In this document: positions 7,830 through 62,311 of the stretch, piece after piece
Numbering within the stretch: the first letter of the stretch is position 1
How the letters are laid out: the number at the start of each line of letters is the position of its first letter
Notes under the pieces: model-generated
The model's input: the letters and a program-made list of their open reading frames with translations, nothing else
The model's database searches: none
Told to the model about the DNA's origin: nothing
Made by a program: the position numbers and the translations under genes
Assembly: GCA_963756875.1 (NCBI GenBank)
Contig: CAVWPA010000003.1
Span: 1,376,001-1,440,000 of the forward strand
Reading direction: 5' to 3'
DNA: 64,000 nucleotides
Source of the DNA: an uncultured Verrucomicrobiae bacterium
GTDB taxonomy: Bacteria; Verrucomicrobiota; Verrucomicrobiia; Chthoniobacterales; UBA10450

Positions 7830-7841
7830 GGCGGAATATCT

Positions 7842-7938
7842 GCCACAGATGGACACCAGCCTACGCTCGGCTCCGGCCCGGCATGCAGATCTTCACAGAT
7901 TTGTCCTTATCCGTGTCGAATCTGTGTAAATCCGTGGC
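7842..7938. repeat. Nonamer-periodic intergenic hairpin (CACAGAT type)
   Basis: GCCACAGATGGACAC...CACAGAT arm pairs with ATCTGTGTAAATCCGTGGC. Confidence 0.6.
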
Positions 7939-7950
7939 GGGATTTTTTTC

Positions 7951-30283: not shown

Positions 30284-30337
30284 TCACCAACGTAACACCA
30301 ACCCGGGTTACCTGAAAAGGTAGCATCGTTTGGAGGC

Positions 30338-30570
30338 ATCTGCTTCGGTCTGCCGACCAACTGATGCGGCCCACATTCCGCAATCTGAACGGTTCGTTCG
30401 AAAGCCGGGCCTGTCGCAACGGATTGTTAGAACAAATTGCCCTTCTCGAAAAAAAGCGGTTTATGAAACGCGAGTCGGGCGCCGTGGATGCTCGCGTCTA
30501 CCGTCTAACCGCCCACGGCCGTCTGCATGCATTGGGCGGACGTGCTCCGGCTGCCCGGTGGTCGCGCCCG
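30338..30570 (+). pseudogene. Truncated PaaX-like winged-helix regulator
   Basis: [13 protein letters not shown]...VYRLTAHGRLHALGGRAPAARWSRP ends where the WDG.W..v.FD motif is expected, at the start of AT-rich DNA. Confidence 0.6.
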
Positions 30571-30578
30571 TATTGTTC

Positions 30579-31301: not shown

Positions 31302-31358
31302 ATTTCTTCTGTTTTCCTCTTGCAGTGGCTCTCGAACACTTCAAAACCTGGCAGGATT

Positions 31359-31510
31359 TCAAGAACCAAAAGGTTTTATCGCAAGGGTCGTCAAAACGGT
31401 CGCGACAGCGGTTCCCTTAATTCCCCAGTATTTGGTGAGAAGATAGATCAGGACAGCCAAACCATCAGTGGCGAACATTGATAAAGCCAGGGCAGATTGG
31501 GTTTGCCGGT
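31359..31510 (-). pseudogene. Possible fragment of a polysaccharide flippase/exporter
   Basis: Hydrophobic LIYLLTKYWGIKGTAVATVLT resembles the G..GAA.AT motif of MATE/Wzx proteins. Confidence 0.35.
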
Positions 31511-31730
31511 TGCCTAAAAAGCGGAACCTGGTGTCGCTCCCTCGGATGTTAGCAAGCCCTGCAGTGCAATGATTTGAAGCGAAACAATCATTTGGCATTC
31601 CATATTTTGTTTCATATGCGACAAAAGATGGGAAGATATAAAGCTCGGGTAGCATCGGGCTCCTTACCCTGAAAGCGAAGCTGGCTTTGGTTGTCACATT
31701 TGATACAGGGGAGCTACATTTGCGAGCAGC

Positions 31731-34103
31731 ATGACAGAAGGTCCGGATTCAGACGTCCAGTTAAAGATCGGACACGTCCTGTTCATGGACGTGGTCGGTT
31801 ACTCCACATTGCTCCTCGACGAGCAGCGGGAGCTTCAGGAAGAGCTCGCCCAAATCGTTAAAAATACGGAACAAGTCCGCATCGCGGAAGAAGCCGGCAA
31901 GCTCATTCGGCTTCCCACAGGCGATGGAATGGCGCTCGTCTTCTTTAGTGGCCCGGAAGCGCCGATTCGCTGCGCCGTGGACATCGGCAGCGCATTGAAG
32001 AGTCATCCTGAAATTCGTCTACGCATGGGGATTCATAGCGGCCCGGTCCATGAAGTGAAGGATGTCAACGATCGGGAAAATGTTGCGGGCGCTGGAATTA
32101 ATACTGCGCAGCGTGTGATGGATTGTGGCGACGCGGGTCACATTCTCCTTTCCAAGCGTGTAGCGGACGATCTTGCACAGTCGCGGCAATGGCGCCCGTA
32201 TCTGCATGAGCTTGGCGAATGCGCGGCCAAGCACGGCATGCCGATTTTCGTGGTGAATCTCTACACGAATGAAGTAGGCAACCCCGAAGCGCCGCAGCGT
32301 TTCAAGCAATTGCAGTCAGCCTGGCGTCCGTCGCCAGTTTATTATCGGCGCAAGGCAGTACTCCTGGTAGTCGGAGCGTTCGTTGCCGTGGCGCTGGCCC
32401 TGGGTGCATGGTTTCATTTTCGGCAAACGCTCCAGCCGGAGAAAAGCATCGCGGTTCTGCCGTTTGAAAATTTCAGCGACGACAAGGAGAACGCCTTTTT
32501 CGCCGATGGAATTCAGGACGACATTCTGACCAGTCTGGCAGAGATCAAAGATCTCAAGGTCATCAGCCGTTCCTCGGTGATGCAGTTTCGCAATATCGCC
32601 GGGCAAAAACTGCGCGACATCAGCAAAATCCTCGATGTCGCGAACGTTCTCGAAGGAAGCGTCCGGCGAGAAGGCGACCGGGTCGTAGTGAACGTGCAAC
32701 TTATCGATGCGTTGGACAACCGGCAGATCTGGGCGAATCGCTACGACCGGACACTGGTCGATTCGTTAGGTCTGCAAGGCGAGCTGGCCACTGAAATTGC
32801 CGAGGCCCTGCGGGTGCGGTTGAGCCCCGAAGAGAAGGCGCGAATCGAAACCAAGCCGACGGAAAACCCGGATGCCTACGTCTTTTATCTGCGGGCGAAC
32901 CAGATTGAACGCAACCCGGACACGCTGCTCGAAGATTACAAGGTGGCGAAGGAACTTTACATGAAAGCCATCGAGCTCGACCCGAATTTCGCGCTGGCCC
33001 ACGCGCGCCTGGCATCCACTGTCGCAGCAATCTTTCATTTCTGCGAACCGCTCGATCGCTGGAAAAAAATGGCGCGTGCAGAGGCCGATACGGCACTGCG
33101 CTTGCAACCGAACCTGGCGGGGGCGCATTTCGCCCTGGGCGAATGCATTTACTGGTTCGATCGGGATTATGACCGTGCGCTGGAGCAGTTCGACATCGCG
33201 TCGAACCTCTCGCCAAACAATGCCGAAATCGGACGCTTAATTGCGGCGATTAAACGCCGTCAGGGAAAATGGGAGGAATCGCTGAAGGCATACGAACGTG
33301 TTCAAAAGATCGATCCGCAGAATCCCAATACCGTCCGGGAACTTGTCTTCACGAACACTGCGATGCGTCGCTGGCAAGAAGCCGCCCGATGGGCGCAACG
33401 AATGCGAAATATGGCGCCTGCGTCGTTGGTGGCCAAGATTCAAAGCGGTTATGTCGATTTTTGGTGGAAAGGCGACACCCACTCGCTGAAGTCGTTGTTG
33501 AACGAAGTCCCGCCCGGAGTCGATCCGGACGGAGTGATCACGGCTACTCGATGGGACGTGGCGATGATCGAGCGCGACTATGCCGCAGCCAGACATGTGC
33601 TCGACACTTCACCACTTCAGTCCGTGTCGTACATGAATGGTGGGTCGACGCCGAAAAGTTTTCTGGAGGGCTGCATCTATCTCGCGCAAAACAACACGAC
33701 TGAGGCGCAAAAGAGTTTCGAAGTGGCACGGCAGATTTGGGAGAAGGAAGTCAAGGAAGCGCCTGCCAGCGCTGAGCGCCACGCCAATCTGGGCTTGCTC
33801 TACGGGTTTATGGAGCGCAAGGACGACGCGGTCCGGGAAGGGCGCCTGGCCGTGGAATTGAAGCCGGAATCGAAGGACGCGGTCGATGGCGCGATCATGA
33901 ACTCTTATCTGGCGCTGATTTACGCGCGGGTCGGCGAAAACGATCTTGCCGTTTCATTAATCGGACGATTGTTGAAAACGCCGGGCGCAGTGGACAGCGT
34001 CGATTACAGCATCACCGTCAACGATCTGAAGCTTCGATGGGAATGGGATCCACTGCGTACCGATCCGCGTTTTCAGAAGCTCATCGAGCAGGGGTCACGT
34101 TGA
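31731..34103 (+). CDS. Adenylate/guanylate cyclase + TolB-like + TPR protein
   Basis: LFMDVVGYS, TGDGM, RMGIHSGPV, INTAQRVM; TM helix; SIAVLPFENFS; TPRs; WDPLRTDPRFQKL. Confidence 0.92.
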   Translation: MTEGPDSDVQLKIGHVLFMDVVGYSTLLLDEQRELQEELAQIVKNTEQVRIAEEAGKLIRLPTGDGMALVFFSGPEAPIRCAVDIGSALKSHPEIRLRMGIHSGPVHEVKDVNDRENVAGAGINTAQRVMDCGDAGHILLSKRVADDLAQSRQWRPYLHELGECAAKHGMPIFVVNLYTNEVGNPEAPQRFKQLQSAWRPSPVYYRRKAVLLVVGAFVAVALALGAWFHFRQTLQPEKSIAVLPFENFSDDKENAFFADGIQDDILTSLAEIKDLKVISRSSVMQFRNIAGQKLRDISKILDVANVLEGSVRREGDRVVVNVQLIDALDNRQIWANRYDRTLVDSLGLQGELATEIAEALRVRLSPEEKARIETKPTENPDAYVFYLRANQIERNPDTLLEDYKVAKELYMKAIELDPNFALAHARLASTVAAIFHFCEPLDRWKKMARAEADTALRLQPNLAGAHFALGECIYWFDRDYDRALEQFDIASNLSPNNAEIGRLIAAIKRRQGKWEESLKAYERVQKIDPQNPNTVRELVFTNTAMRRWQEAARWAQRMRNMAPASLVAKIQSGYVDFWWKGDTHSLKSLLNEVPPGVDPDGVITATRWDVAMIERDYAAARHVLDTSPLQSVSYMNGGSTPKSFLEGCIYLAQNNTTEAQKSFEVARQIWEKEVKEAPASAERHANLGLLYGFMERKDDAVREGRLAVELKPESKDAVDGAIMNSYLALIYARVGENDLAVSLIGRLLKTPGAVDSVDYSITVNDLKLRWEWDPLRTDPRFQKLIEQGSR

Positions 34104-46976: not shown

Positions 46977-49139
46977 ATGAAACTTTTCGCGCGCGCGCGT
47001 CCGCGAAAGAAACGGAGCAAACTCTTCCGTTACGGCTGGAAGATCACACTCATCGGCCTGGTCGGAGGCTCCGTGCTGTCCGTTATTGTGTTCTACGGAG
47101 TTTGGGCCGCGACTTTCGATATGAAGAAGGTCGGTGAAATGCCGGAGCGCAACACCGTGTTCGATGTGGACGGAAGAATTTACAGCCGTCTCGCCGGGGC
47201 GAACCGTTTGAGGGTCCCGCTCGATCAGGTCTCACCGCTTTTCATCAAGGCGTTGCTCGCCCGCGAGGACACCCGTTTTTATCAACACCCCGGGATCGAC
47301 TGGCATGGGATCGCTCGCGCGCTGATCCGCGATCTTCTAAGCGGTTCGGCAAAGGAAGGAGCGAGCAGCCTCACCCAGCAGCTTGCGCGCAACAGTCTCC
47401 CGCTGGGGGGTCGAACCATTAGCCGCAAGTTGCTGGAAGCGATGGTGGCGTTACGCATCGAGCAAACGTTCACCAAAAAACAGATTCTCGAGCTTTATGT
47501 GAACCGGATTTATTTTGGCTCCGGCTGTTATGGCGTTGAAACCGCTTCGCAGGCTTACTTTGGCAAGCACGCCTCAACCCTGAATCTTTCCGAAGCCGCG
47601 TTGCTTGCCGGTTTAATCCGCAGCCCCAATCGCTTTTCGCCTCTGAAAAATCCCGAAGGCGCGGCGCTCCAACGCGATGCTGTCCTGGACCGAATGGTCA
47701 AATTGAAAAAGATCTCGCTTGCCGATGCGATGCGCGCCAGGGCGACCAGGGTCAATACGCATCCCAAACGGATGCTCCAAATCCAGGAGAACTACGCGAT
47801 GGACGCCGTCCAGCGTGATTTAAACCTGCTCCTCAGTCAGGACCAGATCGATAACGGCGGTCTCTCTATATATACTACGCTCGATCCCGCCGTGCAGAAT
47901 GCCGCCCAGCAGGCGCTTGAGACTCAGCTCGCCAAAATCGAGCACCAGGCGAATTTCCACCATCCTATCAAGGCCAATTATCACCCGGTGGAAGGTCAGG
48001 AGGAGTCCTCCATGCCTTATTTGGAAGGGGCCGTAGTTTGCATCGATGACAAAAGCGGCGGCATTCGCGCGCTCGTGGGGGGTCGCGATTATTCGCAAAG
48101 CAAATTCAATCGCGCGCTTCCTCCCGCCAACCGGCAGATCGGGTCCGCTTTCAAGCCATTCGTTTACACGGTTGCGTTTTCGGAAGGCCTTCTTCCCGGT
48201 GCAGCCATCAGCGATGACCGCATCCAGCCCGGCGAAATCCAGGGCGCGGGAAATTGGTCGCCGGGGAATTCCGACGGCACTTATCGCGGCATAGAGTCCT
48301 GCTCTTATGGTTTAATTCATTCGCGCAACACCATGAGCGTGCGCGTCGGCCAGTTCGCCGGACTCGATGCGGTCCAGAAAGTCGCCACCACACTCAATCT
48401 CGGACAGAATATTCCGCGCGTTCCGGCGATCTATATCGGGTCGTTTGAAACCGACCTGAAAGATCTCACGGCGGCCTACACCGTGTTTCCCAATGCCGGT
48501 GTGCGCAAGCAGGCGTACATCATCGAGCGCATCGATGATCCCGAGCATCTGCCGATTTATCGCGCCGCGCATATTTCCGCGCCGGCGCTCAACCCGAGCG
48601 CTTCCTGGATGACTTCGCGTTTGATGGAAGAGGTGCTCACCCGCGGCACGGCTGCCAGCGCGCGTTCGTTAGGCTTCAAGCTGCCCGCCGCCGGGAAAAC
48701 CGGAACGACCAACGATTACAAGGACGCATGGTTTCTTGGTTATACCAGCGCACTTACCTGCGGTGTCTGGGTGGGGTTCGATCAGCCGACAACGATTATT
48801 CCCCACGGTTACGGGTCGGCGCTGGCGCTCCCGATCTGGGTGCAGGTGATGAACAAGGCCGCGCAACGATATCCGGCACAGGAATTTCAGCCCACCATGC
48901 CCATCGTACGCGCGCTGGTTTGCTCGGTTTCAAATCAGCTTGCCACAACCGGTTGCGAAGCGGCCGGCACAGCCTACGAAATTGATTTGCCCGCCGATAA
49001 AGTGCCCACCGTAGCATGCGAACTGCATGGCGGTCAGGAAATGCAGTTCGCGCAAAGACCGGGGGACATTGGCAAAAAGGCCAGCGAGCTTCCAAACAAG
49101 CTCTTTCAATCGCTCAAGAAACTGTTCGGCGGGAAATAA
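46977..49139 (+). CDS. Class A penicillin-binding protein (PBP1A family)
   Basis: EDTRFYQH, GASSLTQQL, RKLLE (GT51); SAFK, SRN, KTG (transpeptidase). Confidence 0.95.
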   Translation: MKLFARARPRKKRSKLFRYGWKITLIGLVGGSVLSVIVFYGVWAATFDMKKVGEMPERNTVFDVDGRIYSRLAGANRLRVPLDQVSPLFIKALLAREDTRFYQHPGIDWHGIARALIRDLLSGSAKEGASSLTQQLARNSLPLGGRTISRKLLEAMVALRIEQTFTKKQILELYVNRIYFGSGCYGVETASQAYFGKHASTLNLSEAALLAGLIRSPNRFSPLKNPEGAALQRDAVLDRMVKLKKISLADAMRARATRVNTHPKRMLQIQENYAMDAVQRDLNLLLSQDQIDNGGLSIYTTLDPAVQNAAQQALETQLAKIEHQANFHHPIKANYHPVEGQEESSMPYLEGAVVCIDDKSGGIRALVGGRDYSQSKFNRALPPANRQIGSAFKPFVYTVAFSEGLLPGAAISDDRIQPGEIQGAGNWSPGNSDGTYRGIESCSYGLIHSRNTMSVRVGQFAGLDAVQKVATTLNLGQNIPRVPAIYIGSFETDLKDLTAAYTVFPNAGVRKQAYIIERIDDPEHLPIYRAAHISAPALNPSASWMTSRLMEEVLTRGTAASARSLGFKLPAAGKTGTTNDYKDAWFLGYTSALTCGVWVGFDQPTTIIPHGYGSALALPIWVQVMNKAAQRYPAQEFQPTMPIVRALVCSVSNQLATTGCEAAGTAYEIDLPADKVPTVACELHGGQEMQFAQRPGDIGKKASELPNKLFQSLKKLFGGK

Positions 49140-49309: not shown

Positions 49310-49837
49310 GTGATGAAAATCTCCCGCAGCATCGTGGTAGCGCTATTAATCAGCGGAATAATCGTAGCCTCTACCCAGGCCGCCGGGCATGGAGGCGCTC
49401 TCACTCCGCTCCATAATACAACCAAACGCGGCGGTTACGTTATCGAGACGGTGGGCGACACCCTGCACCAGGCGCCGCCTCAGGATACCCGTCTGATCAT
49501 TCGCGTTTCCGCCGACAAAAAGCTGATTAAGCCGGCAAGCATCGCGCTGATCGACAAGAGCGGTGCTGCGATCAAGCCGGTGTTTCGTGAGGACCGAAAA
49601 GTTGGCCACGAAGAAAATACGGGGTTGCCCTTGTCGGTCGGCGGATACGGGGACACGTCGGGGGTTCATTCCACGGGCGTCGGAATCAATCTCAACAAGA
49701 TCTTTGGACCGCACGGCAGCTACGCCTACACGAAAGTGGATTGGCCGAAGAACGTGTTCACTGCGGACAAAAAACTGCAGATCGTTTTGCCCGGCGGGCA
49801 GGCGCTTCTTCTTCCGCTGACTGCAATCGCCCAATGA
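49310..49837 (+). CDS. Secreted hypothetical protein (operon gene 1)
   Basis: Signal peptide; ATGA overlap with the next gene. Confidence 0.75.
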   Translation: MMKISRSIVVALLISGIIVASTQAAGHGGALTPLHNTTKRGGYVIETVGDTLHQAPPQDTRLIIRVSADKKLIKPASIALIDKSGAAIKPVFREDRKVGHEENTGLPLSVGGYGDTSGVHSTGVGINLNKIFGPHGSYAYTKVDWPKNVFTADKKLQIVLPGGQALLLPLTAIAQ

Positions 49838-50316
49838 AACCCCATGCTTTTATCTGCTCGCTCGCGATCGCTGCAATTGGTTTCATTCTGACCGGAAACG
49901 CATTCGCGAAACCGGCCGGCTGTCCCTGCAATCCATGCAAATGCGGCGTCTGTCATTGCGGTGGCGGCGGCGGCGGTGGTGGTGGTGGCGAGAAACAGGC
50001 ACATAAAAAGGAGGGCGGCAAAAAAGAGGGCGACAAACATCACCACGGGCGAGGGAATCATGAAGGAGGCAGCAGCGTCGGAGTGGGATTCGATGTCGAT
50101 CTTGGCGGCGTCGGACATCGTACGCGGGAACCGGATCCGTTTGCCGTTTCCGAAGGATCGTCCAGCTCACAAACACACGAGCGACATACGGCGAAAAACA
50201 AGGAGACCCATGTCGCCAACTCCAATCCATTTGCCGATATAAAGCTTACGGGGAAACAGGCCAAAAACATAGCCGCATCGGAAGGCTCTTCCGGGACGAC
50301 GTTGCCCAAAAAATAA
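49834..50316 (+). CDS. Secreted Cys/Gly/His-rich protein (operon gene 2)
   Basis: MKPHAF...GNAFA signal; CPCNPCKCGVCHC, Gly run, His-rich segment; NPFADIKLTGKQAK. Confidence 0.75.
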   Translation: MKPHAFICSLAIAAIGFILTGNAFAKPAGCPCNPCKCGVCHCGGGGGGGGGGEKQAHKKEGGKKEGDKHHHGRGNHEGGSSVGVGFDVDLGGVGHRTREPDPFAVSEGSSSSQTHERHTAKNKETHVANSNPFADIKLTGKQAKNIAASEGSSGTTLPKK

Positions 50317-50364
50317 TCATGGCATCGCCGTTTCCACAAAGGGGGCCAGCGCGAGGCGTTCCCA

Positions 50365-51861
50365 GTGGATCGGATTAGCTTGTTCGCGGCTGGTTGGTCC
50401 GCTGTTGCGGCGAGCCTCGTCTTTATCGGCAATCCCATTCTTGCCGACACACTGACGTCGCAAGTGCGGATCGACGTCAAAATCGTCGAGGTCAGCCGCA
50501 ACTCGACACGCGAGCTCGGCATTGATAATAGCCTCGCTGAAGCTCTTTCAAAGTTGCCGCCGGACGCTTCCAAGCTGCCCGCGCCCCAGACGTCGGTTCC
50601 GGTTTTGGGGCCGTCTCCTTCTGCCGGCGTCATTGGTCAGCGCCTTTTTCCCAACGAGGAAGCACCGTACAACATCACATTTAGCACGATGCTGACAGAC
50701 CCTCAGCTTGAAGCCATGCTGAAAGCGTTCGACCGTGCGAAGAACGCCAAAGTTCTTTCGGTGCCGACCGTCATGGCTCCGTATAATCAGCGTGCAAGCA
50801 TCGTCATTAATCCTTCGGTCCCGTTTCCCAACCAAACGCTGATCCTCGACGCGACGCCGCACCTCGGCGCGGATGGCAGCATCCTGATTACGATTGTTCC
50901 CAAAGTGTCGGAAGGGAACATTCTTCAACAGCCCACAGTGCAGCCACGGGAAGTCGCGAATCCGATCACCGTGGGGATCGACCAGGTTCCGGTGCTGGGC
51001 GGACTTTTCAAGAAGACTCAGACTCCCGAGCACAAGGAGAACCTGATCGTTTTCGTTACCGCTCAACCCGTCGATGTGTTTTCGCATTCCAGCAGTGGGA
51101 ACGGGTCGGATCCGGTTAAGGTGGATGCGGTCGGCACCGGCGAAACCATCGGACACGTCGGGGATCTGAACATTCAAAATCTTACGGATGGTCCGCTGCA
51201 TTTTTTCGTCCCGCCGATGATCCTCGAATCGATTAATGGCTCCGACCAGGATTACGTTTGTCCGCACGGCGAGAACGTGTCGATTCCCGCGGGTCAAACC
51301 AAAACGGTTCCCATGGATGGCGTTTGCATCAACCGGAACAAGCCGCCTGTCGGCAAAGGTGTCAGCGGCGCGCTCGTCGTGAACACGGTCGAACCCAATA
51401 TTGCCCAACATCCCGATTGTCATCTGCCCGCGAAGGCAGCCGGCAATTTGTTGCTCATTTGCGATTCGATTTATCAGGCGGCTGAAAAACTGCAGGAAGA
51501 AGGCGAGCTAAAGGAATTCCCTTACAAGAAAAAGAAGGAGCAAAAGGAGATCCTGGTGCAATGGAGCACCTGGGCCAACCCACGGATTTCCGAAGTCACA
51601 AAAGAACCGCCGGCGACGAAGGACGATCTAAAGAAGGTCGTTTACAAACAGGTTGAAGAAAAGGGAAAGCCGAGTCCCGGAACGAAGAAGAAGCTCGACC
51701 AGGGCATCGACACCATCTTCGAAAAAGTGGAGCTCACCTCAACGAAAGCCAAAGAGTTGGAAAAGCCCGATCCATTCGCCGGCGTGGAGCTAACAGGCGA
51801 GAAGGCCAAGAACGAGCAAGAGCCGGCCGCCCAAAGCCCGGCTCCGTCTCCAAAGGGATGA
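50365..51861 (+). CDS. Minimal secretin-like domain fused to the repeated ~220-aa domain (operon gene 3)
   Basis: QVRIDVKIVEVSR...ELGID, AKVLSVPTV...NQRASI, L..TPHLGADGSI, VPVLGGLFK, NLIVFVT; repeated domain at ~51130-51810. Confidence 0.8.
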   Translation: MDRISLFAAGWSAVAASLVFIGNPILADTLTSQVRIDVKIVEVSRNSTRELGIDNSLAEALSKLPPDASKLPAPQTSVPVLGPSPSAGVIGQRLFPNEEAPYNITFSTMLTDPQLEAMLKAFDRAKNAKVLSVPTVMAPYNQRASIVINPSVPFPNQTLILDATPHLGADGSILITIVPKVSEGNILQQPTVQPREVANPITVGIDQVPVLGGLFKKTQTPEHKENLIVFVTAQPVDVFSHSSSGNGSDPVKVDAVGTGETIGHVGDLNIQNLTDGPLHFFVPPMILESINGSDQDYVCPHGENVSIPAGQTKTVPMDGVCINRNKPPVGKGVSGALVVNTVEPNIAQHPDCHLPAKAAGNLLLICDSIYQAAEKLQEEGELKEFPYKKKKEQKEILVQWSTWANPRISEVTKEPPATKDDLKKVVYKQVEEKGKPSPGTKKKLDQGIDTIFEKVELTSTKAKELEKPDPFAGVELTGEKAKNEQEPAAQSPAPSPKG

Positions 51862-53356
51862 GAGAGCAAGATAACAGTCCGAAAGCCTGGCACCGGCGAC
51901 TTGGTCCATCACCGCGACCAGCATTGCGCGTGCTCTTCGTTCTGGGCTGGCTCTGTCTCGCTATTTCCGTTCTCGCCGACGAACCGAAGGTCACTAAGAA
52001 CGCTGATGGCAGTACCACCACAACTGAAAACGTGACTGTTACAGAAATGAATCGTCAGGGTGGCCTGAGTTACAAAGATTACCAGAAATCCACAACGCGG
52101 GACATCCGCGGAAAAATTACCAAAATCGAATGGTACCATCTGGGGAAGAAAGGGAAACGTCGCGCGCTCGGGCGCGTCTTGTTTCGTTCAGTCAGATCCC
52201 AAAACTCAACGGACCGTGATCACGACGTACACATATCAGAAAAATGGGACTCTCGTGAGTAAAGGGGAGGAGGTTTATTCGAACAAGGATGGAAGCCTGC
52301 TCCATGAGAAATCTGAGAACTATGACCCGACCGGGAAAAATGTGAATGCAGGCATAAGGCACGAATGGGAAGGTTGGGAGGACGGTAACACCAAAACATG
52401 GAAATCGGAGCAGTGGAATCCCAAGACCCAGGAATGGCAGCCGTTACCCATTAATCCCGGTCCTGAGACCCATCCTAAACTCGACAAGGCACTCGATGAC
52501 TACGCAAAGGATCACGGTAACGCTTCTCCCCTCGAGCCATCCGAGTCGGCTTCACCGTCTCCGACCAAACCGCCACCAAAGACGATCTCCTCTCTGCTTT
52601 CTAATAAAGAGCCTGAACCTGGCGATTGCCGGGACCGGCCAGACCATCGGGCACATTGCTGATTTCAGGCTCCAAAACCAAACGGATCAGCCGGTCAGTT
52701 TTGTCATCCCGGCGATGGTGTTGGAATCGAGCAGCGGCAAGAACCAGCATTACGCCTGTCCAAAAGGGCAGACGGTCGATCTTGGACCAAAACAGAGTAA
52801 AACCGTGCCAATCGATGGCGTGTGCCTCGACCGAAGCAAACCGCCGGCAGGCAAAGGCATGACCGGCGATTTGGTCATCAACGAAGCCAGCCCGGGAGGG
52901 ACAGCGATGGCCGGTTCGCATGTTCCGCTCAAGGACGCGAACAAAATGCTTCGGATCGCCAAATCCAAGTACGATGCGGCCGAGAAATTGGAAAAGGAGG
53001 GCGAGCTCAAGGAATTGCCTTATCACGACAAGCAAAAGCAGAAAGACATCATGGTTCAATGGAGCATCTGGAGCGACCCGCAGATTTCCGAGATTACCGG
53101 TGCGCCGCCGGCCACCAAAGAGGATTTGAGGAAAGTCGTTTACAAACAGGTGGAAGAAAAAGGGCCGATGACGCCGGCGACCAAAAAGAAAGTGGACAAG
53201 GGCATCGGCACCATCTTCGAGAAAGTCGAGCTCACTTCAGCAAAAGCCAAAGACCTCGAGGCGCCCGACCCATTTCAAAACGTCGAAGTCACCGGCGAAA
53301 AGGCGAAAGCTGAAAATGAGTCGCCGCCAGTCGAAAGCCCGGCTCCATCCCCGTGA
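51858..53356 (+). CDS. Secreted repeated-domain paralog (operon gene 4; apparent +1 frameshifts at ~52183 and ~52607)
   Basis: Three track ORFs join into one protein collinear with 53376-54812. Confidence 0.78.
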
Positions 53357-53375
53357 GCTTTTCGTCCCTGAAAAT

Positions 53376-54812
53376 ATGAAACAACAGATACACCACCCGA
53401 GAGCTCGCCCTCAGCTACGGCTCTGGCCCAACGTGGCGCCGGTGCTTGTCATTTTAGGTTGGTTCTGTCTTACCGGCACAATTGTTGCCGACGAACCGAA
53501 GGTCACAAAAAATCCCGACGGAACCACTACCACGATCGAGAAAGTCTTCTTCGACAAACTCTTCGGGAACCCTTTTGTCGGCCGCGGCAAGAAACGGACC
53601 ACTCGGGACAAAGATGGGAACCTCACCAAGATCGAGTGGGTGCGCGGGGGAAAGAAACGGGAACGCCCGGTCGTGGCGATATTTGTCGAACGTAATCCCA
53701 AGTCGAATCAGACGACGATAGCAACCTATACCTATGAGAAAGATGGAACTCTGCAATCAAAGAAGGAAGAGGTTTATAACAAAAATGGCGCGTTGATTCT
53801 GGACCGTTATGAGACTCACTTCCAGATGGGAAAAGCAACCACTTTCCAGACGGGAAAAGCAACCACTCCCGCTCCCTTAACCTTCAGCCATTCCTACGAG
53901 GGGAAGAGCTTGGTCGGGGGGCAACTAGACAATGCCTTAAAGGATGTTCAAAATAGATGGAGCTCGGCAACTCCGGCTTCCGAGGCGTCCCCGCCTTCTG
54001 CCACTCCGTCGCCTTCGCCGAAAGAAACGACTCCGGCAACAATCTCGTCGCTAATTCTCCAGAAGAAAGTGGGCTTCGCGATTGCCGGCACGGGCGAAAC
54101 CATCAGGCACATTGCCGATTGCATAATTCAAAATCAAACGGACCAGCCGGTCAGCCTTGTGATTCCGGCGATGGTGCTGGAATCGAGCAGCGGAAAGAAT
54201 CAGCATTACGCCTGTCCAAAAGAGCAGACGGTCGAACTCGGACCAAAGCAAAGCAAAACGGTGCCGATTGATGGCGTTTGCCTGGACCGAAGCAAACCGC
54301 CGGTTGGTAAAGGAGTGACCGGCGATCTCGTCATCAACGAAGCCAGCCCGGGAGGGACAGCGATGGCCGGTTCGCATGTTCCGCTGAAGGAAGCCAACAA
54401 AATGCTTCGCCTCGCCAAATCCAAGTACGATGCGGCCGAGAAATTGCAGAAGGATGGCGAGCTTAAGGAGCTGCCGTACCACGACAAGCAGATGCAGAAA
54501 GACATCATGGTTCAATGGAGCATCTGGAGCGATCCGCAGATTTCCGAGATTACCGGTGCGCCCCCGGCGACCAAGGACGATTTGAGAAAAGTCGTTTACA
54601 AACAGGTGGAAGAAAAAGGGCCAATGACGCCCAAGACCAAAAAGAAGTTGGACAAAGGCATCGACACCATCTTCGAAAAAGTCGAGCTCACTTCAGCAAA
54701 AGCGAAAGAGTTAGAGGCGCCCGATCCGTTCCAAAACGTCGAATTGACCGGCGAAAAAGCGAAGGGCGGAACTGAATCGCCGCCCCAAAAAGAGAAGGAG
54801 CCGCAACCATGA
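53376..54812 (+). CDS. Secreted repeated-domain paralog (operon gene 5)
   Basis: Signal ...LGWFCLTGTIVA-DEPKVTK; beta-rich N-terminal region; Pro/Ser linker; repeated domain. Confidence 0.85.
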   Translation: MKQQIHHPRARPQLRLWPNVAPVLVILGWFCLTGTIVADEPKVTKNPDGTTTTIEKVFFDKLFGNPFVGRGKKRTTRDKDGNLTKIEWVRGGKKRERPVVAIFVERNPKSNQTTIATYTYEKDGTLQSKKEEVYNKNGALILDRYETHFQMGKATTFQTGKATTPAPLTFSHSYEGKSLVGGQLDNALKDVQNRWSSATPASEASPPSATPSPSPKETTPATISSLILQKKVGFAIAGTGETIRHIADCIIQNQTDQPVSLVIPAMVLESSSGKNQHYACPKEQTVELGPKQSKTVPIDGVCLDRSKPPVGKGVTGDLVINEASPGGTAMAGSHVPLKEANKMLRLAKSKYDAAEKLQKDGELKELPYHDKQMQKDIMVQWSIWSDPQISEITGAPPATKDDLRKVVYKQVEEKGPMTPKTKKKLDKGIDTIFEKVELTSAKAKELEAPDPFQNVELTGEKAKGGTESPPQKEKEPQP

Positions 54813-56656
54813 ATTACCGATTTTCTAGTCATAGATTGGGGGAGACAAGACACGAGCGTAGTTGGCGAGTCGTCTTTGGTTTGCTTTTTATTATCACTCT
54901 TGCGCTCCCTGCACCTTTTTTGCGCGCCCAGACGGACGCAAAGGGCAATCCAATGAGTGCCGAGGATCTCGTCAATAATCATGATTCTTCCACGACTCCG
55001 AAGGGCCGGTCCACTCAGGTTGACCGCAATCCCGACAGCCAGAACATCGATCATGTGTGGGTTTACGATCCGAAAGGGCGCAAGCGCCGGGAAATTCGTA
55101 TCGATCGTGATCCGCTCGGAAACGCGCATGTGGAATCCATCGATTTTCGACCGGACGAGAAGACTGCGAGCACGGAAACAACAACGAGCTTTGCTCCCGG
55201 TTTCGATGGCCAGCGCCATCCGACGGATCGCAAAACTATCGTGTACCCCACCGCCGGTGGGTTCGTTACGCCTGACGAGAAGCTGAAGCATTCTACCGGC
55301 TGGCAGGAAAAGTGGGAGGATGGACACTGGGTCCGCGTTGCGGAGTTGAAAGATGGTCAATGGGTCTCCACGCAGAAGCAACCGCCGCCGCAGGAAAAGA
55401 CGATCTCATCTCTGCTTTCCAATAAAAGCGTGAACCTGGCGATTGCCGGTACCGGCAACACCATCGGCGACATTGCCCATCTCAAGGTCCAAAATCTTAC
55501 CGATCAACCAATAAGTTGCGTTATCCCGCCAATGATCCTCGAGTCCACCAGCGGCAAGAATCAGCATTACGCCTGTCCCAAGGGCCAGACGGTGGCGATC
55601 AAGCCCCATGATACCGCCACAGTCCCCATTGATGGCGTTTGCATTAACCGCCACAAACCGCCGGTCGGTAAAGACGTAACGGGCGATCTGGTGATCAATA
55701 CCGGCGATCCTACCGCTCCGCAAAATCCCGATTCACATCTTCCGGCAAAGGACGCGAACAATCTTCTGCGCATCGCCAGGTCGAAGTATGACGCCGCCGA
55801 CAAGCTGCAAAAGGACGGCGAGCTGAAGGATCTGCCCTACCACGATAAGCAAAAGCAGAAGGACGTTGTCGTGCAATGGAGCACCTGGACGGATCCGGAT
55901 ATTTCGGAAATCGTGGGCGGGCCTCCCGCAACAAAGGACGATTTGAAAAAAGTTGTCTACAAACAGGTGGAAGAGAGCGGGCCGATGACCCCGGGCACCA
56001 AAAAGAAGGTGGACAAGGGGATCGACACCATCTTCGAAAAAGTCGAGCTCACTTCAAAGAAAGCCAAAGACCTGGAAGAGCCTGATCAGTACGCAGAGAC
56101 GGGGACTCCGCCCAACACGGTCGAAATCGCGGATCATTCCGGGGATACAACGACCCAGGAAAAGCCAAAAGGAAAAGGAAGAGGAAAGGGTAAAGGGAAA
56201 GGCAAAGGCGGAAAGAAGTGGCCCAAACCAATCCAGGATTGGCTGGATAAAAAGAAAGCCGCGGATGATGCCGACAACGCGAAAAAGTGGGCACAGGATC
56301 AGTGGGACAGGGACCTTGAAAACTACTGCTTGCGAAACAGCGAGCATTACCGCGAGCTAAGACCAAAACAAGATGAGAAGTCGATAAAAGCCTTCAGAAA
56401 GAACGGCACGCAGACAGATAAGGATGATTTCGAAAAGGGTGAGCGCGAACTTAAGACACTCCGGCAACAATTCGCGCGGGACTTCCAGAAGACGGATCAA
56501 GCCAAGGAAGATTCTCAAATAATCCGTGATTCTGAAAAAGCGGCCGACGCCGCCCACGAAGCGGAGCAAAAAGCCGGAAAAAACATAGATCCGGCAACCA
56601 AGTCAGTGGTGGAAGCAGAGGAACCCAAATCCGAGATCGTTCCAGGTGTGTGGTGA
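54809..56656 (+). CDS. Secreted repeated-domain paralog with extra charged helical C-terminus (operon gene 6)
   Basis: ATGA overlap; signal peptide; repeated domain at ~55438-56082; GK-repeat linker. Confidence 0.85.
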   Translation: MNYRFSSHRLGETRHERSWRVVFGLLFIITLALPAPFLRAQTDAKGNPMSAEDLVNNHDSSTTPKGRSTQVDRNPDSQNIDHVWVYDPKGRKRREIRIDRDPLGNAHVESIDFRPDEKTASTETTTSFAPGFDGQRHPTDRKTIVYPTAGGFVTPDEKLKHSTGWQEKWEDGHWVRVAELKDGQWVSTQKQPPPQEKTISSLLSNKSVNLAIAGTGNTIGDIAHLKVQNLTDQPISCVIPPMILESTSGKNQHYACPKGQTVAIKPHDTATVPIDGVCINRHKPPVGKDVTGDLVINTGDPTAPQNPDSHLPAKDANNLLRIARSKYDAADKLQKDGELKDLPYHDKQKQKDVVVQWSTWTDPDISEIVGGPPATKDDLKKVVYKQVEESGPMTPGTKKKVDKGIDTIFEKVELTSKKAKDLEEPDQYAETGTPPNTVEIADHSGDTTTQEKPKGKGRGKGKGKGKGGKKWPKPIQDWLDKKKAADDADNAKKWAQDQWDRDLENYCLRNSEHYRELRPKQDEKSIKAFRKNGTQTDKDDFEKGERELKTLRQQFARDFQKTDQAKEDSQIIRDSEKAADAAHEAEQKAGKNIDPATKSVVEAEEPKSEIVPGVW

Positions 56657-56680: not shown

Positions 56681-57280
56681 CTAGGGCATCACGGTAACCG
56701 GGGTCCCGACGCTCACCTCGTCGAACAGTTCGGCAATGTCCTTGTGCAACATGCGAAGGCATCCATGTGAAACCGATTTTCCGACCGTTCTCGGATGCGG
56801 CGTGTCGTGGAAGCCGACCGCGATCTTCCCGTTGGTCCATATCCCGATCCAGTAGCGCCCGAGTTCGTTTCCAGGGGCGCCGGCAGGAAATATTTTTCCC
56901 GTGATCGGGTGTTTCCACGCGGGATTTTCAATCATCTGAAAGACGCGGAAATCGCCGAGCGGGGTTTCCCATCCGGGGCGCCCCACGGCGATGGGATAGG
57001 TTGTGATTTCCGTGTCGCCGCGATAAAGCGCGACCTCATGACGGCTGCGACTCACCTCAAGGTGGACCAGCGCTGTCGGCACCTGATCTGAGACGGTCGG
57101 GATCTCGATGATCTGTCCGACAGCAGAAGAAACTCCTGCGATCACCACGATCGGGAGCAAACTCCACCATGCGGCCGATGGACGCCATGCGCTCACTGCT
57201 TTCAAATCACATCGTCGATGGAGAAGAAATGCAACAGGAAAAATTGCCGGGAGCGCCAAACCTCTCGAGCGCTGGGCCAA
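56681..57280 (-). CDS. L,D-transpeptidase (YkuD family)
   Basis: YPIAVGRPGWETPLG, GFHDT...SHGCLRM; start uncertain. Confidence 0.88.
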   Translation of the reverse strand: MAQRSRGLALPAIFPVAFLLHRRCDLKAVSAWRPSAAWWSLLPIVVIAGVSSAVGQIIEIPTVSDQVPTALVHLEVSRSRHEVALYRGDTEITTYPIAVGRPGWETPLGDFRVFQMIENPAWKHPITGKIFPAGAPGNELGRYWIGIWTNGKIAVGFHDTPHPRTVGKSVSHGCLRMLHKDIAELFDEVSVGTPVTVMP

Positions 57281-57516: not shown

Positions 57517-59127
57517 ATGACTCAAGCCTCTTCTTTGAAATTGCCCGACGGTGTTGAGATTCGAGGAAACGTCGGGCCGCGGTTCGACCATATTCTCACC
57601 CCGGAAGCGCTCGCATTTGTGGCAAAGCTTGAACGCGCGTTCGGCATTCGGCGGCTGGAATCGCTGGAACGGCGGGCAGGGCGCCAGGCAGAGTTGGATC
57701 AGGGTGGGTCACTCGATTTTTTACCCGAGACCAAATCAATTCGGGAGAGCGAATGGCAATGCGCTCCCATTCCGCCGGATATCCGGGATCGGCGGGTCGA
57801 GATCACCGGGCCGACGGATCGAAAGATGGTGATCAACGCACTCAATTCGGGCGCGAAAATTTTCATGGCAGACTTCGAGGACGCAAATTCACCCACCTGG
57901 CGGAACATGGTGGAAGGCCAGATTAATCTGTGGGATGCCATTCGGCGGACCATTGAGTTTACCAATCCCGAAGGAAAGGAATACAAACTCAACCAGGAGG
58001 TTGCGGTTCTGATGCCGCGGCCGCGCGGCTGGCATCTGGTGGAGAAACACATGCTGGTGGATAGCCGGCCCGTTTCCGGCGGTCTTTTCGATTTCGGCCT
58101 GTTCTTTTTCCATAACGCCAAAGAACTGATCGCGCGAGGAAGCGGTCCTTATTTCTACCTGCCGAAGTTGGAAAGCCATCTGGAAGCGCGGATTTGGAAC
58201 GACGTATTCAAGGTCGCCCAGGACGAATTGGGAATCCCGCAGGGGACGATTCGCGCCACCGTTCTGATCGAAACGATTCCGGCCGCTTTCGAGATGGACG
58301 AAATCCTGTACGAGCTGCGGGATCATTCCGCCGGCCTCAACTGCGGACGATGGGATTACATTTTCTCCTGCATTAAAAGGTTCCGGAACAAGCGCGATTT
58401 TCTGCTGGCTGATCGGGCGCTTATTACCATGACCACGCACTTCATGCACAGCTACTCATTGTTGTGCATCAAAACGTGTCATCGCCGGAATATCTTTGCG
58501 ATGGGCGGTATGGCCGCGCAGATCCCGGTAAAAAATAATCCAAAGGCTAACGAGGAAGCATTCGCCAAGGTCCGGGCGGACAAGGAGCGGGAGGCGGGTG
58601 ATGGGCATGACGGCACCTGGGTGGCCCATCCCGGCATGGTCCAGCTGGCCACCGATGCGTTTAACGAGAAAATGCCGCAGCCTAACCAGATCGCCAGGAA
58701 ACGCGATGACGTGAACGTCGCGGCGCGCGATTTGCTCGATTTTCGGCCATCGCAACCGATCACCGAACAAGGTTTGCGCACGAATGTCAGCGTGGGCGTG
58801 CAATACCTCGAGGCCTGGCTTCGCGGTCACGGTGCCGTGCCCATTTTCAATCTAATGGAAGACGCCGCCACTGCCGAAATTTCGCGGGCTCAGGTCTGGC
58901 AATGGATCCGCCACCCGCAGGGCGCGCTGACCGACGGGCGCAAGGTGAGCAAGGAACTGTTCCGATCGGTTCTGGCGGAAGAGCTGGACAAAATCAGAAA
59001 TGAGATTGGGCAGAAAAGATTCGCGGCCGGGAAATTCGACGCTGCTCGGCAGTTGTTCGATGAAATTACAACGAACGACGAGTTCGTGGAGTTTCTAACC
59101 CTGCCCGGATACGACAGGCTCGATTAG
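57517..59127 (+). CDS. aceB: Malate synthase A
   Basis: [40 protein letters not shown]. Confidence 0.96.
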
Positions 59128-59131
59128 CAGA

Positions 59132-60403
59132 ATGGTTCCGAAAAATAGAGCGGCAGGCGACGATTGGGAATCGAATCCGCGCTGGCGCGGCATTCACAGA
59201 ACCTACTCGTTAGGGGACGTGAAGCGGTTGCAGGGAAGCGTGACAATCGAGCATACGCTGGCCCGGCGCGGAGCGGAGAAATTGTGGCAGCTGTTGGAAG
59301 CCGAGCCTTACCTCCACACTCTCGGCGCGCTAACCGGGAACCAGGCGGTTCAACAGGTTCGCGCAGGATTGAAGGCGATCTATGTCAGTGGCTGGCAGGT
59401 AGCAGCCGACGCCAATCTCGCGGGTCAGATGTATCCCGACCAGAGTCTTTATCCGGTTAACAGTGTGCCGGTGCTGGTGAAGCGGATCAACCAAGCCTTG
59501 CAGCGGGCCGACCAGATCGCGCACGCCGAGGGCAACAATCAGATCGACTGGTTCGCCCCGATTGTGGCCGATGCCGAGGCGGGCTTCGGCGGGCCGCTCA
59601 ACGTCTTTGAACTGGTCAAAGCGATGATTGAAGCCGGCGCGGCTGCGGTTCACCTCGAAGACCAATTGGCGAGCGAGAAGAAATGCGGTCACATGGGCGG
59701 CAAGGTTCTGGTGCCGACGCGCAGCGCATTGACGCACCTGACTGCGGCGCGCCTGGCCGCCGATGTTTCGAATGTTCCGACCATCATTCTCGCCCGGACC
59801 GATGCCAACGCGGCTTCGCTATTGACCAGCGATGCCGATGAGCGCGATCACGCCTTTCTCACCGGCGAGCGGACGCCGGAAGGTTTTTATCGCGTGCGGG
59901 CCGGAATTGACCAGGCGATCGCGCGCGGTCTCAGTTATGCCCCGCTGGCCGACATGATTTGGTGCGAAACGGCTGAACCGAATCTGGCGGAAGCCAGAAA
60001 ATTTGCAGAGAGCATTCGAGAGAAATTTCCGGACAAGCTGCTGTCCTACAATTGTTCGCCGTCCTTCAATTGGAAAAAGAAGCTGGATAGCGCCACGATC
60101 GGAAAGTTTCAGCGAGAACTAGGCGCCATGGGTTACAAGTTTCAATTTGTGACCCTGGCCGGTTTTCACGCACTCAACTACAGCATGTTTCACCTGGCCC
60201 GGGGATACACGGAACGCGGGATGGCTGCCTATTCGGAGTTGCAGGAGGCGGAATTTGCCGCTGAATCGCTCGGCTACACGGCTACCAAACATCAGCACGA
60301 AGTCGGCACCGGTTATTTCGACGATGTGGCGCACGTGATTGCGGGCGGCAAAAGCTCGACCGTCGCGCTGCATGGATCAACCGAGCGGGAACAATTTCAT
60401 TAG
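59132..60403 (+). CDS. aceA: Isocitrate lyase
   Basis: KKCGHMGGK signature, [16 protein letters not shown]. Confidence 0.97.
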
Positions 60404-60443
60404 CCTGTAATAAACAGCCTCGAGCCGGTCCTTAGAACTCAGT

Positions 60444-60511
60444 TCACCACGAAGAACACGAAGCAAAGCAAATACATGTCATCTTCGTGACCTTCGTGTT
60501 CTTCGTGGTGA
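60444..60511. repeat. Nonamer-periodic hairpin (CACGAAG type) between aceA and aceK
   Basis: Perfect 20-bp inverted repeat TCACCACGAAGAACACGAAG / CTTCGTGTTCTTCGTGGTGA. Confidence 0.8.
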
Positions 60512-60541
60512 TTAAGAAATTCCGGTGCGACTGACTGGAGA

Positions 60542-62311
60542 ATGGATTCGGGGAATGCAACATCGTTGACCGATAGCAGGCTGGCCGCGCTTTGCGCCCA
60601 AACTGTTCAGGACGCATTCAACATTTATCAACGGCGTTTCGACGAAATTACCCTGCGGGGACGGGACCGGTTTCTGGCTCGGGATTGGGCAGGATCATTC
60701 GGTGATGCTGCCGCTCGGCTCCAACTTTATACGAAGGTCCTGGACGACCTCACCACCGCCATCAAATGCCTGATGGAATCCCGTTTGCCGGATCGCGCGA
60801 TCTGGAGCGCGATTAAAGCGGTTTACTCTTCACTAATTGCCGGGTCCGCCATGTGGGAGGTCGCTGAGAGTTTTTTTAATTCTCTGACTCGCCGTGTGTT
60901 CGCAACGGAAGGCGTCGATCAGGCGATCGAGTTCGTGGATACCGATTTCGATCCACCGCCTGACCCGGAAACCAATCAGCAGCGATCATATCGCGGCCAG
61001 CCTCTCGATCGATTGTTGTTTGCCGCCCTGACGGATACGACCGGCGGAGGTTTCGCAGAGGAATGTTGGTCGGATCTCAAGGCAACCGTGAGGGTGGCAG
61101 GCGAACGGCTGGAGGCAGCGTTCTTCGAGAGTGGCGCGGAGCGCGAAGCGAACGGCGATTGGCGGCTCGAGATGGCGGGCCGGGTCTTTTATCGCGGACG
61201 AGGCGCTTACTTTGTGGGACTTCTTGGATGCGGTTCCGCCAGTATGGTGGAATTGCCCATCGCGCTTTGCCTGCGGCATCCAAGCAAACAGGGAATCAGT
61301 CTGGACGCCGTCCTGCATGGAGAGAGCGATCTGGCGGTGCTGTTTTCCTACACCCGGGCTTATTTTCGGGTAACAGCGAAATGTCCGCACCAGCTGATCC
61401 GGTATCTCGAACAGCTAATGCCCCGCAAACGAAGGGTGGATCTTTACAACGCGATCGGATTTCATCGCCATGGCAAAACGGAATTTTATCGCGATTTCGT
61501 GAGTCATCTGCGCGATTCGACGGATCGGTTCGGGCTCGCCGAAGGAGTGCCCGGGATGGTGATGCTGGTTTTCACTCTTCCGAGCTACGACGTCGTGTTC
61601 AAGTTGATCAAGGACCAGTTCGATTTTCCGAAGGATAGCACGCGTGCCGAAGTGATGAGTCGCTATCGCCTGGTGTTTGAGCACGATCGGGCCGGCCGGT
61701 TGGTGGAAGCCCATGAATTTGAGCATCTCCGGATCGCGCGGGAGCGGTTCGACGAGCGCTTGCTCGACCAACTTCTGCGGGAAGCCCGCCAAATCGTGCG
61801 AGTTGAGGGCGACGACGTGATGATCAGCCATGCTTACGTCGAGCGTCGGATCAAGCCGCTGAATCTGTTCTTCAGGAACGCCGACGAGATCGAGTCCGCC
61901 ACCGCGGCGATCGATTATGGCCAGGCCATCAAGGACATGGCCGCGTCGAACATTTTTCCCGGCGATTTGCTGACCAAGAATTTCGGGGTGACGCGGACCG
62001 GCCGGGTGGTGTTTTATGATTACGACGAGCTTTGTTTCCTAACGGATTGCAATTTCCGCGATCTCCCGAAAGCAACGACATACGAGGAGGAAATATCTGC
62101 TGAGCCATGGTTCTCGGTCCGCGCTAACGATATTTTCCCGGAGGAGTTCCCCCGGTTTCTATCGCTGCCCGGTCCGGCTCGGACCGCGTTATTCGAACGG
62201 CATGCCGATTTGTTTGGCGCCGATTTTTGGCGGGGCGTTCAACAGAAACTTCGCGACGGCGAGCTGCCGGAGATTTTTCCGTACAAAGCAGAGCGGCGGC
62301 TAAAGACGTAA
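60542..62311 (+). CDS. aceK: Isocitrate dehydrogenase kinase/phosphatase
   Basis: AESFFNS, GKTEFYR, GMVMLVF...VFKLIKD, NIFPGDLLTKNFGVTR..RVVFYDYDE. Confidence 0.95.
   Translation: MDSGNATSLTDSRLAALCAQTVQDAFNIYQRRFDEITLRGRDRFLARDWAGSFGDAAARLQLYTKVLDDLTTAIKCLMESRLPDRAIWSAIKAVYSSLIAGSAMWEVAESFFNSLTRRVFATEGVDQAIEFVDTDFDPPPDPETNQQRSYRGQPLDRLLFAALTDTTGGGFAEECWSDLKATVRVAGERLEAAFFESGAEREANGDWRLEMAGRVFYRGRGAYFVGLLGCGSASMVELPIALCLRHPSKQGISLDAVLHGESDLAVLFSYTRAYFRVTAKCPHQLIRYLEQLMPRKRRVDLYNAIGFHRHGKTEFYRDFVSHLRDSTDRFGLAEGVPGMVMLVFTLPSYDVVFKLIKDQFDFPKDSTRAEVMSRYRLVFEHDRAGRLVEAHEFEHLRIARERFDERLLDQLLREARQIVRVEGDDVMISHAYVERRIKPLNLFFRNADEIESATAAIDYGQAIKDMAASNIFPGDLLTKNFGVTRTGRVVFYDYDELCFLTDCNFRDLPKATTYEEEISAEPWFSVRANDIFPEEFPRFLSLPGPARTALFERHADLFGADFWRGVQQKLRDGELPEIFPYKAERRLKT

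What the first reader, a model, noticed from the sequence alone, without database searches (positions are those of the whole stretch)
49310..56656. Six-gene operon: a secretin fused to a domain repeated in three exported paralogs (candidate novel surface-display or secretion system)
Seen: six co-oriented genes, three junctions being ATGA overlaps, all with signal-like N-termini. Gene 3 has recognisable secretin core motifs but no periplasmic N domains, and the core is much shorter than usual. It is fused to a ~220-aa domain (GTG.TIG...Q.Y.C...VP.DGVC..R.KPP...VQWS.W...KVVYKQVEE...TIFEKVELTS). That domain recurs, highly conserved, in genes 4, 5 and 6 behind divergent N-terminal regions. Known: secretins of T2SS, T3SS, T4P and Tad systems work with ATPases and inner-membrane platforms, none of which is present here. 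Inference: a self-contained module in which the shared domain mediates co-assembly on an outer-membrane ring, and the variable N-termini are interchangeable cargo or adhesin heads.
Basis: partly seen in the sequence, partly recalled or inferred. Interest (0 to 1): 0.85.

Follow-up and report, generated by a model that had tools for sequence, protein, structure and literature searches.

The report
Exported thioester-like proteins, optional truncated secretin
The repeated domain looks like a rearranged version of the 'chemical harpoon' (thioester) domain known from Gram-positive adhesins, here in exported proteins of a two-membrane soil bacterium, and the shortened secretin is an occasional add-on rather than the core of a secretion system.

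Summary
The six-gene unit is real; gene 4 is split by two frameshifts here. The repeated ~216-aa domain has no Pfam or NCBIfam hit but folds confidently (pLDDT 97). Its only whole-domain structural matches are bacterial thioester domains (TEDs; best Z 6.1, modest). It keeps the four TED hallmark residues: Gln295 (208/208), Cys321 (207/208) and a Q-x-x-Φ-W helix. The Gln strand lies before the Cys, not after the helices. A related family passes the Pfam TED cut-off with the same order, and ARPP-1 shows the three motifs in that order too. Genes 1 and 2, not the secretin, are the conserved partners: gene 1 occurs in 14 of 17 family genomes with the domain; the secretin fusion in 3 of 18 loci, as one derived clade. 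That secretin piece lacks N domains and ~70 core residues. Best reading: an exported covalent-capture module with swappable heads (0.55). The thioester bond, its target, the location and any ring are untested.

The parts
49310..49837 (+). Gene 1: exported ~175-aa protein of no known family; conserved core partner; holds a Gly-rich putative beta-hairpin
   Evidence: 406 homologues, listed ones 66-100% identical; in 16 of 355 family genomes, 14 shared with the domain; no Pfam/NCBIfam hit
49834..50316 (+). Gene 2: exported, largely low-complexity 160-aa protein with CPCxPCxC, VGVGxxVDLGG and F..V.LTG..AK motifs; the last resembles the domain's final helix and the tails of genes 3-5
   Evidence: follows gene 1 in the loci examined; its profile hits the tails of genes 3-5 at E 9e-8 to 1e-5
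50365..51861 (+). Gene 3: signal peptide + truncated secretin-like domain + thioester-like domain (498 aa; start could lie a few codons upstream)
50449..51078 (+). Truncated secretin-like domain (residues 29-238): no N or S domains, shortened gates, keeps the AHL-type motif, lacks the G-E-T-x-V-x-G-G strand
   Evidence: PilQ E 1.8e-14; hhalign 98.7% to the genome's own full secretin; median 198 aa against 268-270
51115..51762 (+). Thioester-like domain, copy 1; Gln295 at 51247-51249, Cys321 at 51325-51327, Gln399/Trp403 at 51559-51573
51858..53356 (+). Gene 4: signal peptide + beta-rich head + thioester-like domain (52613-53260); split by frameshifts near 52184 and 52605 in this assembly
53376..54812 (+). 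Gene 5: paralogue of gene 4 (open frame from 53316; likelier start 53376); domain at 54069-54716
54809..56656 (+). Gene 6: signal peptide + different head + thioester-like domain (55430-56077) + charged helical tail shared with 41 other proteins

Best explanation
The locus is a small exported covalent-capture module of Chthoniobacterales-like Verrucomicrobiota. Its constant parts are gene 1, gene 2 and one or more proteins with a thioester-like domain. Shown: the domain is a beta-subdomain plus helical bundle with invariant Gln, Cys and a QxxΦW helix, related to TEDs and to ARPP-1, with the Gln strand placed before the Cys. Inferred: after Sec export the domain forms an internal Cys321-Gln295 thioester that reacts with an amine on a target (envelope polymer, foreign protein or surface), as TEDs do. 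The variable N- and C-terminal modules act as stalks, anchors or specificity heads. One lineage recruited a cut-down secretin domain as such a head; it probably serves for oligomerisation or outer-membrane association, not as a gated secretion channel. Genes 1-2 are inferred to anchor or assemble the proteins, which carry no lipobox or C-terminal sorting signal.
For: Whole-domain structural matches are all TEDs: 7 of the 50 rows (5a0g rank 1, Z 6.1, rmsd 3.7, 128 aligned; 6fwv 5.8; 2xi9 5.6; 5a0n 5.3; 5dcq 5.2; 6fwy 5.1; 5a0l 4.9); the other rows match essentially one subdomain. Gln295 208/208, Cys321 207/208, Trp403 207/207, Gln399 202/208; Gln+Cys together in 239 of 240 rows; the nearby Cys299 is missing in 47 of 208 while Cys321 stays. 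Motifs V-C-[LVI]-[ND], Q-[DH]-Y-[AV], V-Q-W-S-[TVI]-W parallel the three TED motifs of Walden 2015 and Miller 2018. Bridge protein L090 passes Pfam TED (23.6 bits, cut-off 22), has the Gln-first order, and its family aligns to the domain at hhalign 83% (92% with distant members; 60 shuffles at most 2.6%), Gln on Gln and Cys on Cys. ARPP-1 shows Gln, Cys and QxxΦW in the same order in 10 of 10. Secretin is optional and derived. 183 of 194 domain proteins have a hydrophobic N-terminus, 1 a lipobox-like motif, 0 PEP-CTERM/LPxTG.
Against: Z of 5-6 is within the range the tool calls common, rows are tied with unrelated Ig-like domains, and Foldseek found no match at E<=0.001. The window's domains do not hit PF08341 or TIGR03934. 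Direct hhalign to pLS20-type TEDs gives under 1% probability, though it does align the Cys motifs. The bridge passes Pfam only narrowly. Target and location are unknown. The link to ARPP-1 is weak (25.7%).
Confidence: 0.55

Rival explanations
1. The Gln/Cys pair is reactive but not a TED-type resting thioester: it acts as an enzyme or sugar cross-linker, as proposed for ARPP, on envelope or environmental polysaccharide.
For: ARPP has invariant Cys and Gln in a beta-barrel and was proposed to cross-link sugars, in one case exported with a polysaccharide deacetylase (PMC9503650 passages); weak alignment Gln on Gln, Cys on Cys; atlas lead 0.85; the locus sits beside PBP1A and, in three loci, an L,D-transpeptidase.
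Against: PF20208 does not hit the genome; no sugar-active gene is a conserved neighbour in the loci examined; the PBP1A link is explained by a fixed chromosomal site; the ARPP function is itself only a proposal.
Confidence: 0.2
2. One reading: gene 3 forms an outer-membrane secretin ring on which genes 4-6 co-assemble through the shared domain, a self-contained display or secretion system.
For: Secretin homology and fold; fusion kept in 28 of 207 full-domain proteins at 43-73% identity (set enriched by the query); this copy keeps the AHL-type motif; a more truncated mitochondrial GspD without N domains still assembled in liposomes (PMC8134430 passages).
Against: 15 of 18 genome loci and 49 of 52 metagenome loci show no secretin (some are cut by contig ends). 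N3 is reported as required for pore assembly and is absent. Each copy keeps either the AHL-type motif (14 of 26) or the GETxVxGG-type strand (11 of 26), never both by pattern, so membrane insertion is not conserved. The most conserved residues are the Gln/Cys/Gln/Trp set.
Confidence: 0.15
3. The domain is a non-reactive structural or adhesion module; Cys321 forms a disulfide and the TED resemblance is convergent.
For: Low Z and no sequence hit to solved TEDs; Cys299 is predicted opposite Cys321 and is the only other Cys in the domains of genes 4-6.
Against: Cys321 and Gln295 stay where Cys299 is lost (47 of 208); Cys366 occurs almost only with Cys299 (122 of 127), suggesting that pair instead; the bridge family has one Cys and passes Pfam TED.
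Confidence: 0.1

Closest known systems
Bacterial thioester domains, class I/II (PF08341; SfbI, Cpa, CpTIE 5A0G, BaTIE 6FWV, pLS20 p34)
   Same: Beta-subdomain plus helical bundle; Cys at the end of a strand in CΦζ; QxxΦW helix; a QζΦΦ strand; modular exported proteins.
   Different: Gln strand precedes the Cys instead of following the helices; domain is internal, not at the N-terminal tip; no isopeptide stalk or LPxTG; diderm host; below Pfam cut-off. The papers read describe TEDs as Gram-positive.
ARPP-1 (PF20208; Iyer et al. 2022, PMC9503650)
   Same: Invariant Gln then Cys in a beta-barrel, then QxxΦW (10 of 10).
   Different: No PF20208 hit here; ARPP is ~297 positions with a further beta-meander core and is mostly linked to ADP-ribose systems; described as unrelated to known domains.
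Secretins PilQ/GspD/RcpA (PF00263)
   Same: Residues 29-238 align over the C-domain from first to last strand; PilQ is the best match.
   Different: No N0-N3 or S domain, ~70 residues shorter, gates cut, one of two C-terminal segments deleted, fused to a reactive-type domain, no ATPase, platform or pilotin gene in the locus.
Mitochondrial GspD (PMC8134430)
   Same: A secretin reduced to part of the C-domain.
   Different: It keeps T2SS partners and separate N-domain proteins; independent origin.
Bacterial alpha-2-macroglobulin (recalled; search listing only)
   Same: Cys-Gln thioester in a diderm envelope, an analogy for a periplasmic trap.
   Different: Unrelated complement-type fold.

Membership tests
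Thioester domain (TED class I/II) | Invariant Cys in a [YFL]CΦζ strand | tested here: met
   Cys321 207/208, followed by L/V/I then N/D; position -1 is mostly Val rather than Y/F/L, Tyr in distant members and the bridge family
Thioester domain (TED class I/II) | TQxxΦW helix after the Cys | tested here: met
   V-Q399-W-S-[TVI]-W403 in a predicted helix; Gln 202/208, Trp 207/207
Thioester domain (TED class I/II) | Bond-forming Gln on a strand C-terminal to the helical subdomain | tested here: not met
   The only fully invariant Gln (295) is 26 residues before the Cys; no strand follows the helices in the model
Thioester domain (TED class I/II) | Beta-barrel plus three-helix fold | tested here: inconclusive
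   Seven TEDs are the whole-domain matches but Z 4.9-6.1; Foldseek none
Thioester domain (TED class I/II) | PF08341 / TIGR03934 cut-off | tested here: not met
   No hit; one homologue E 0.05; bridge protein 23.6 bits over cut-off
Thioester domain (TED class I/II) | Cys-Gln thioester bond (-17 Da) | not testable with these tools
   No coordinates or mass data; covariation noisy
TIE adhesins | Isopeptide/ester stalk and LPxTG anchor | tested here: not met
   0 of 194 with LPxTG or PEP-CTERM; no stalk families among the top 25 Pfam families of 79 members
ARPP-1 | PF20208 cut-off | tested here: not met
   No match in the genome at E<=10
ARPP-1 | Conserved Gln and Cys in a beta-barrel | tested here: inconclusive
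   Aligned, hhalign 8.7-25.7%; 40 shuffles at most 1.5%
Secretin of T2SS/T4P/Tad/T3SS | Secretin C-domain homology and fold | tested here: met
Secretin of T2SS/T4P/Tad/T3SS | Periplasmic N domain(s), N3 | tested here: not met
   Secretin match starts right after the signal peptide in the 26 aligned fusions
Secretin of T2SS/T4P/Tad/T3SS | Complete double barrel with both C-terminal segments | tested here: not met
   ~40-residue deletion; either segment alone; full-length NCBIfam cut-offs far missed
Secretin of T2SS/T4P/Tad/T3SS | Linked ATPase and inner-membrane platform | tested here: not met
   None in the window locus or genome loci inspected; no Walker-A pattern hit in 52 metagenome loci; present elsewhere in the genome
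Secretin of T2SS/T4P/Tad/T3SS | 12-16-mer outer-membrane ring | not tested
   The single complex job went to another pair

The most novel reading that the evidence does not exclude
A Gln-first superfamily of self-forming thioester domains joins Gram-positive TEDs with ARPP-1 and gives diderm bacteria their own covalent adhesion or capture system; in one lineage a minimal secretin-derived ring holds a crown of these harpoons at the outer membrane, assembled with genes 1-2 and without ATPase or pilus.
Probability: 0.2. Interest if true: 0.9.

Novelty: new variant of a known kind. Interest (0 to 1): 0.72.

Why it matters
The papers read treat bacterial thioester domains as Gram-positive surface adhesins with a fixed Cys-then-Gln order. 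A Gln-first version in Verrucomicrobiota would add a third topology, extend covalent capture to diderms, and offer a testable chemistry for ARPP-1, whose invariant Cys and Gln are unexplained. It would also be a natural case of a secretin domain cut down and reused outside a secretion machine. One mass measurement on a 216-aa domain tests the core claim.

Tried and rejected
Complex prediction of the domain with gene 1 gave no answer (score 0.00): no evidence either way. Sequence searches of solved structures with the domain and bridge alignments found nothing relevant. Pfam, NCBIfam, PF08341, TIGR03934 and PF20208 gave no hit for the window's domain. Foldseek gave no hit for the domain alone. 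Gene 1 has only sub-0.9 atlas leads and was not folded. No plasmid record matched the domain. No RNA holder was listed. Promoter and terminator scans were at chance level. Covariation (effective depth ~126) was too noisy to place Gln295; its rank-19 pairing with Cys321 is probably an artefact of invariance. The careful tree did not finish; the quick tree was used. The bridge family was found in only 1 of 301 phylum genomes. No earlier scan findings were returned. Literature searches showed no description of this family, of a secretin-thioester fusion or of a Gln-first TED; the library lacks most subscription papers, and searches were swamped by unrelated hits. Rejected: mobile element (fixed chromosomal site; GC like the rest); lipoproteins (no lipobox).
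Full report
Observation. The six genes, three ATGA overlaps and four domain copies are in the sequence. The copies are 57-63% identical to gene 3's and occur nowhere else in the 2.69-Mb, 88% complete genome. Gene 4 is split into three frames; intact orthologues exist, and a near-identical contig is one base shorter across the first break, so an assembly error is likely there. The second break is covered only by a divergent contig. Named homologous loci are Chthoniobacterales and related Verrucomicrobiota, including Candidatus Udaeobacter; the host is inferred to belong there.

What is conserved. Among 355 family genomes the domain is in 17 and gene 1 in 16, with 14 in common. Of the five genomes with only one, four have the hit near a contig end; one (G023) has two domain genes with no gene 1 found. 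In 18 distinct genome loci, window included, gene 1 is adjacent in 14 and the secretin fusion occurs in 3. Of 52 metagenome loci, many short, 28 show gene 1, 28 gene 2 and 3 the secretin, although the query was the fusion alignment. Comparing lists, 10 of the best 150 representatives carry it. On a quick tree of 84 domains the fusion needs 3 changes against 19.6 for shuffled labels and is nested among unfused proteins. Most long loci lie between PBP1A and a pilin-like/DUF2851/serS block: a patchily kept cassette at a fixed site. Distant members in three other families of the class had no gene 1, gene 2 or secretin in the regions fetched. Heads and tails fall into many unrelated groups and some occur on either side.

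The secretin part. It passes Pfam, matches PilQ best and folds like secretins (Foldseek E 2.5e-4; Z 7.2, rmsd 4.7, 115 aligned). It begins right after the signal peptide and is about 198 residues against 268-270 for the genome's two full secretins. The alignments show a 12-16-residue cut in the first gate region and a ~40-residue cut near the end. Of 26 copies, 14 keep a G-x-I-P-x-L-G segment and 11 a G-[QE]-T-x-V-x-G-G segment, none both by pattern. That the first segment is the amphipathic helical loop is recalled; its role in membrane insertion and the need for N3 come from passages of PMC6155069 and PMC8134430. The latter also shows that a truncated secretin can still oligomerise, so a ring is not excluded. 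Full secretins and GspE/PilB-type ATPases lie elsewhere in the genome and could act in trans.

The repeated domain. It has 413 relatives at E<=0.001 among 50%-identity representatives and no family hit. The model (pLDDT 97.3, pTM 0.92) has a beta-subdomain and a helical bundle. In a search of 48,161 chains seven TEDs appear among 50 rows and are the ones spanning both subdomains; the best is 5a0g, Z 6.1. These scores are modest and Foldseek finds nothing. The residue pattern is stronger. [quoted passage not shown] Here Gln295 and Cys321 are kept in 239 of 240 rows that cover both; the exception looks frameshifted. Gln399 and Trp403 form the helix motif. The difference is order: the Gln comes first. 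A Pfam TED search of 301 phylum genomes gave 3 hits; one, L090, has this order, with AQNMA, YCLD and IQSALW, and ends after the helices. It passes the cut-off, and its six-member family aligns with our domain at 83-92%, far above shuffles. ARPP-1, an atlas lead, was described with an invariant Cys and Gln and a proposed cross-linking role (PMC9503650 passages; its structure supplement was not seen). Ten ARPP-1 proteins from 301 phylum genomes all show Gln, Cys and QxxΦW in the same order; the profile match is weak but in register. Against: no direct profile match to pLS20-type TEDs beyond the Cys motif, and the Gln-Cys distance is unmeasured.

Mechanism. Shown: export-type N-termini by a crude hydropathy rule, no lipid or C-terminal anchors, modular architecture, fixed partners, invariant Gln/Cys. 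Inferred: self-formed thioester (about 0.65-0.7), covalent capture of an amine, heads as stalks or anchors, genes 1-2 as anchor or assembly factors. Gene 2 and the tails of genes 3-5 repeat the domain's last helix, which could dock into a neighbouring domain; this is speculation. Whether the proteins stay in the periplasm or reach the surface is open. OmpA-family neighbours in two loci hint at the envelope.

Comparison and novelty. It works like a TED protein but fails the class I/II strand order, the Pfam cut-off and the anchor test, so it is not filed as a member. It is not a canonical secretin system. Passages of PMC13685950, PMC9210967 and PMC8092201 place TEDs in Gram-positive bacteria or give no diderm case; bioRxiv 10.64898/2026.10.19.760177 (passages) concerns the complement-type fold. 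Searches showed no description of this family; coverage is incomplete. Verdict: new variant of a known kind, interest 0.72; the bold reading (thioester crown on a minimal secretin ring, uniting TED and ARPP-1) has probability 0.2.

Noticed in passing
L157-L166: ARPP-1 proteins carry a QxxΦW motif after their Gln and Cys (10 of 10), the TED helix motif; ARPP-1 may itself be a Gln-first thioester domain.
   Followed up: partly
L090:928-1533 (-): Stand-alone 202-aa exported protein that is a minimal Gln-first TED-like domain, over the Pfam TED cut-off.
   Followed up: yes
L088, L089: Two further Pfam TED hits in Verrucomicrobiota genomes resemble ordinary Cys-first TED proteins with stalks; transfer or binning contamination not checked.
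   Followed up: no
window 6144-9474: Proteasomal ATPase next to a Pup-ligase family gene.
   Followed up: no
window 56684-57280 (-) and 46977-49139 (+): L,D-transpeptidase and PBP1A flank the locus; the L,D-transpeptidase is also adjacent in the two other secretin-bearing genome loci, L013 and L073, and in none of the other loci checked.
   Followed up: partly
window 57517-62311: AceK (Pfam) after two genes that look like malate synthase and isocitrate lyase (recalled, not scanned).
   Followed up: no
G000:C3:1633186-1635843 (L018): A third secretin gene in the genome appears broken into several frames.
   Followed up: no
L011:5744-6685 and L155:8789-9745: An OmpA-family gene (Pfam for L011, by likeness for L155) lies directly upstream of tandem domain genes.
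   Followed up: partly
P0235-P0248: Several distant 570-930-aa proteins hold two or more beta-subdomain copies with Gln and Cys and a separated helical part; one other member, P0236, has a weak C39 peptidase hit.
   Followed up: no
window 49834-50316: Gene 2 begins with a CPCxPCxCxxCxC motif kept in many but not all orthologues; possible metal or disulfide knot.
   Followed up: no
window 30001-32000: GC dips to 0.49 around a sulfotransferase-family gene.
   Followed up: no
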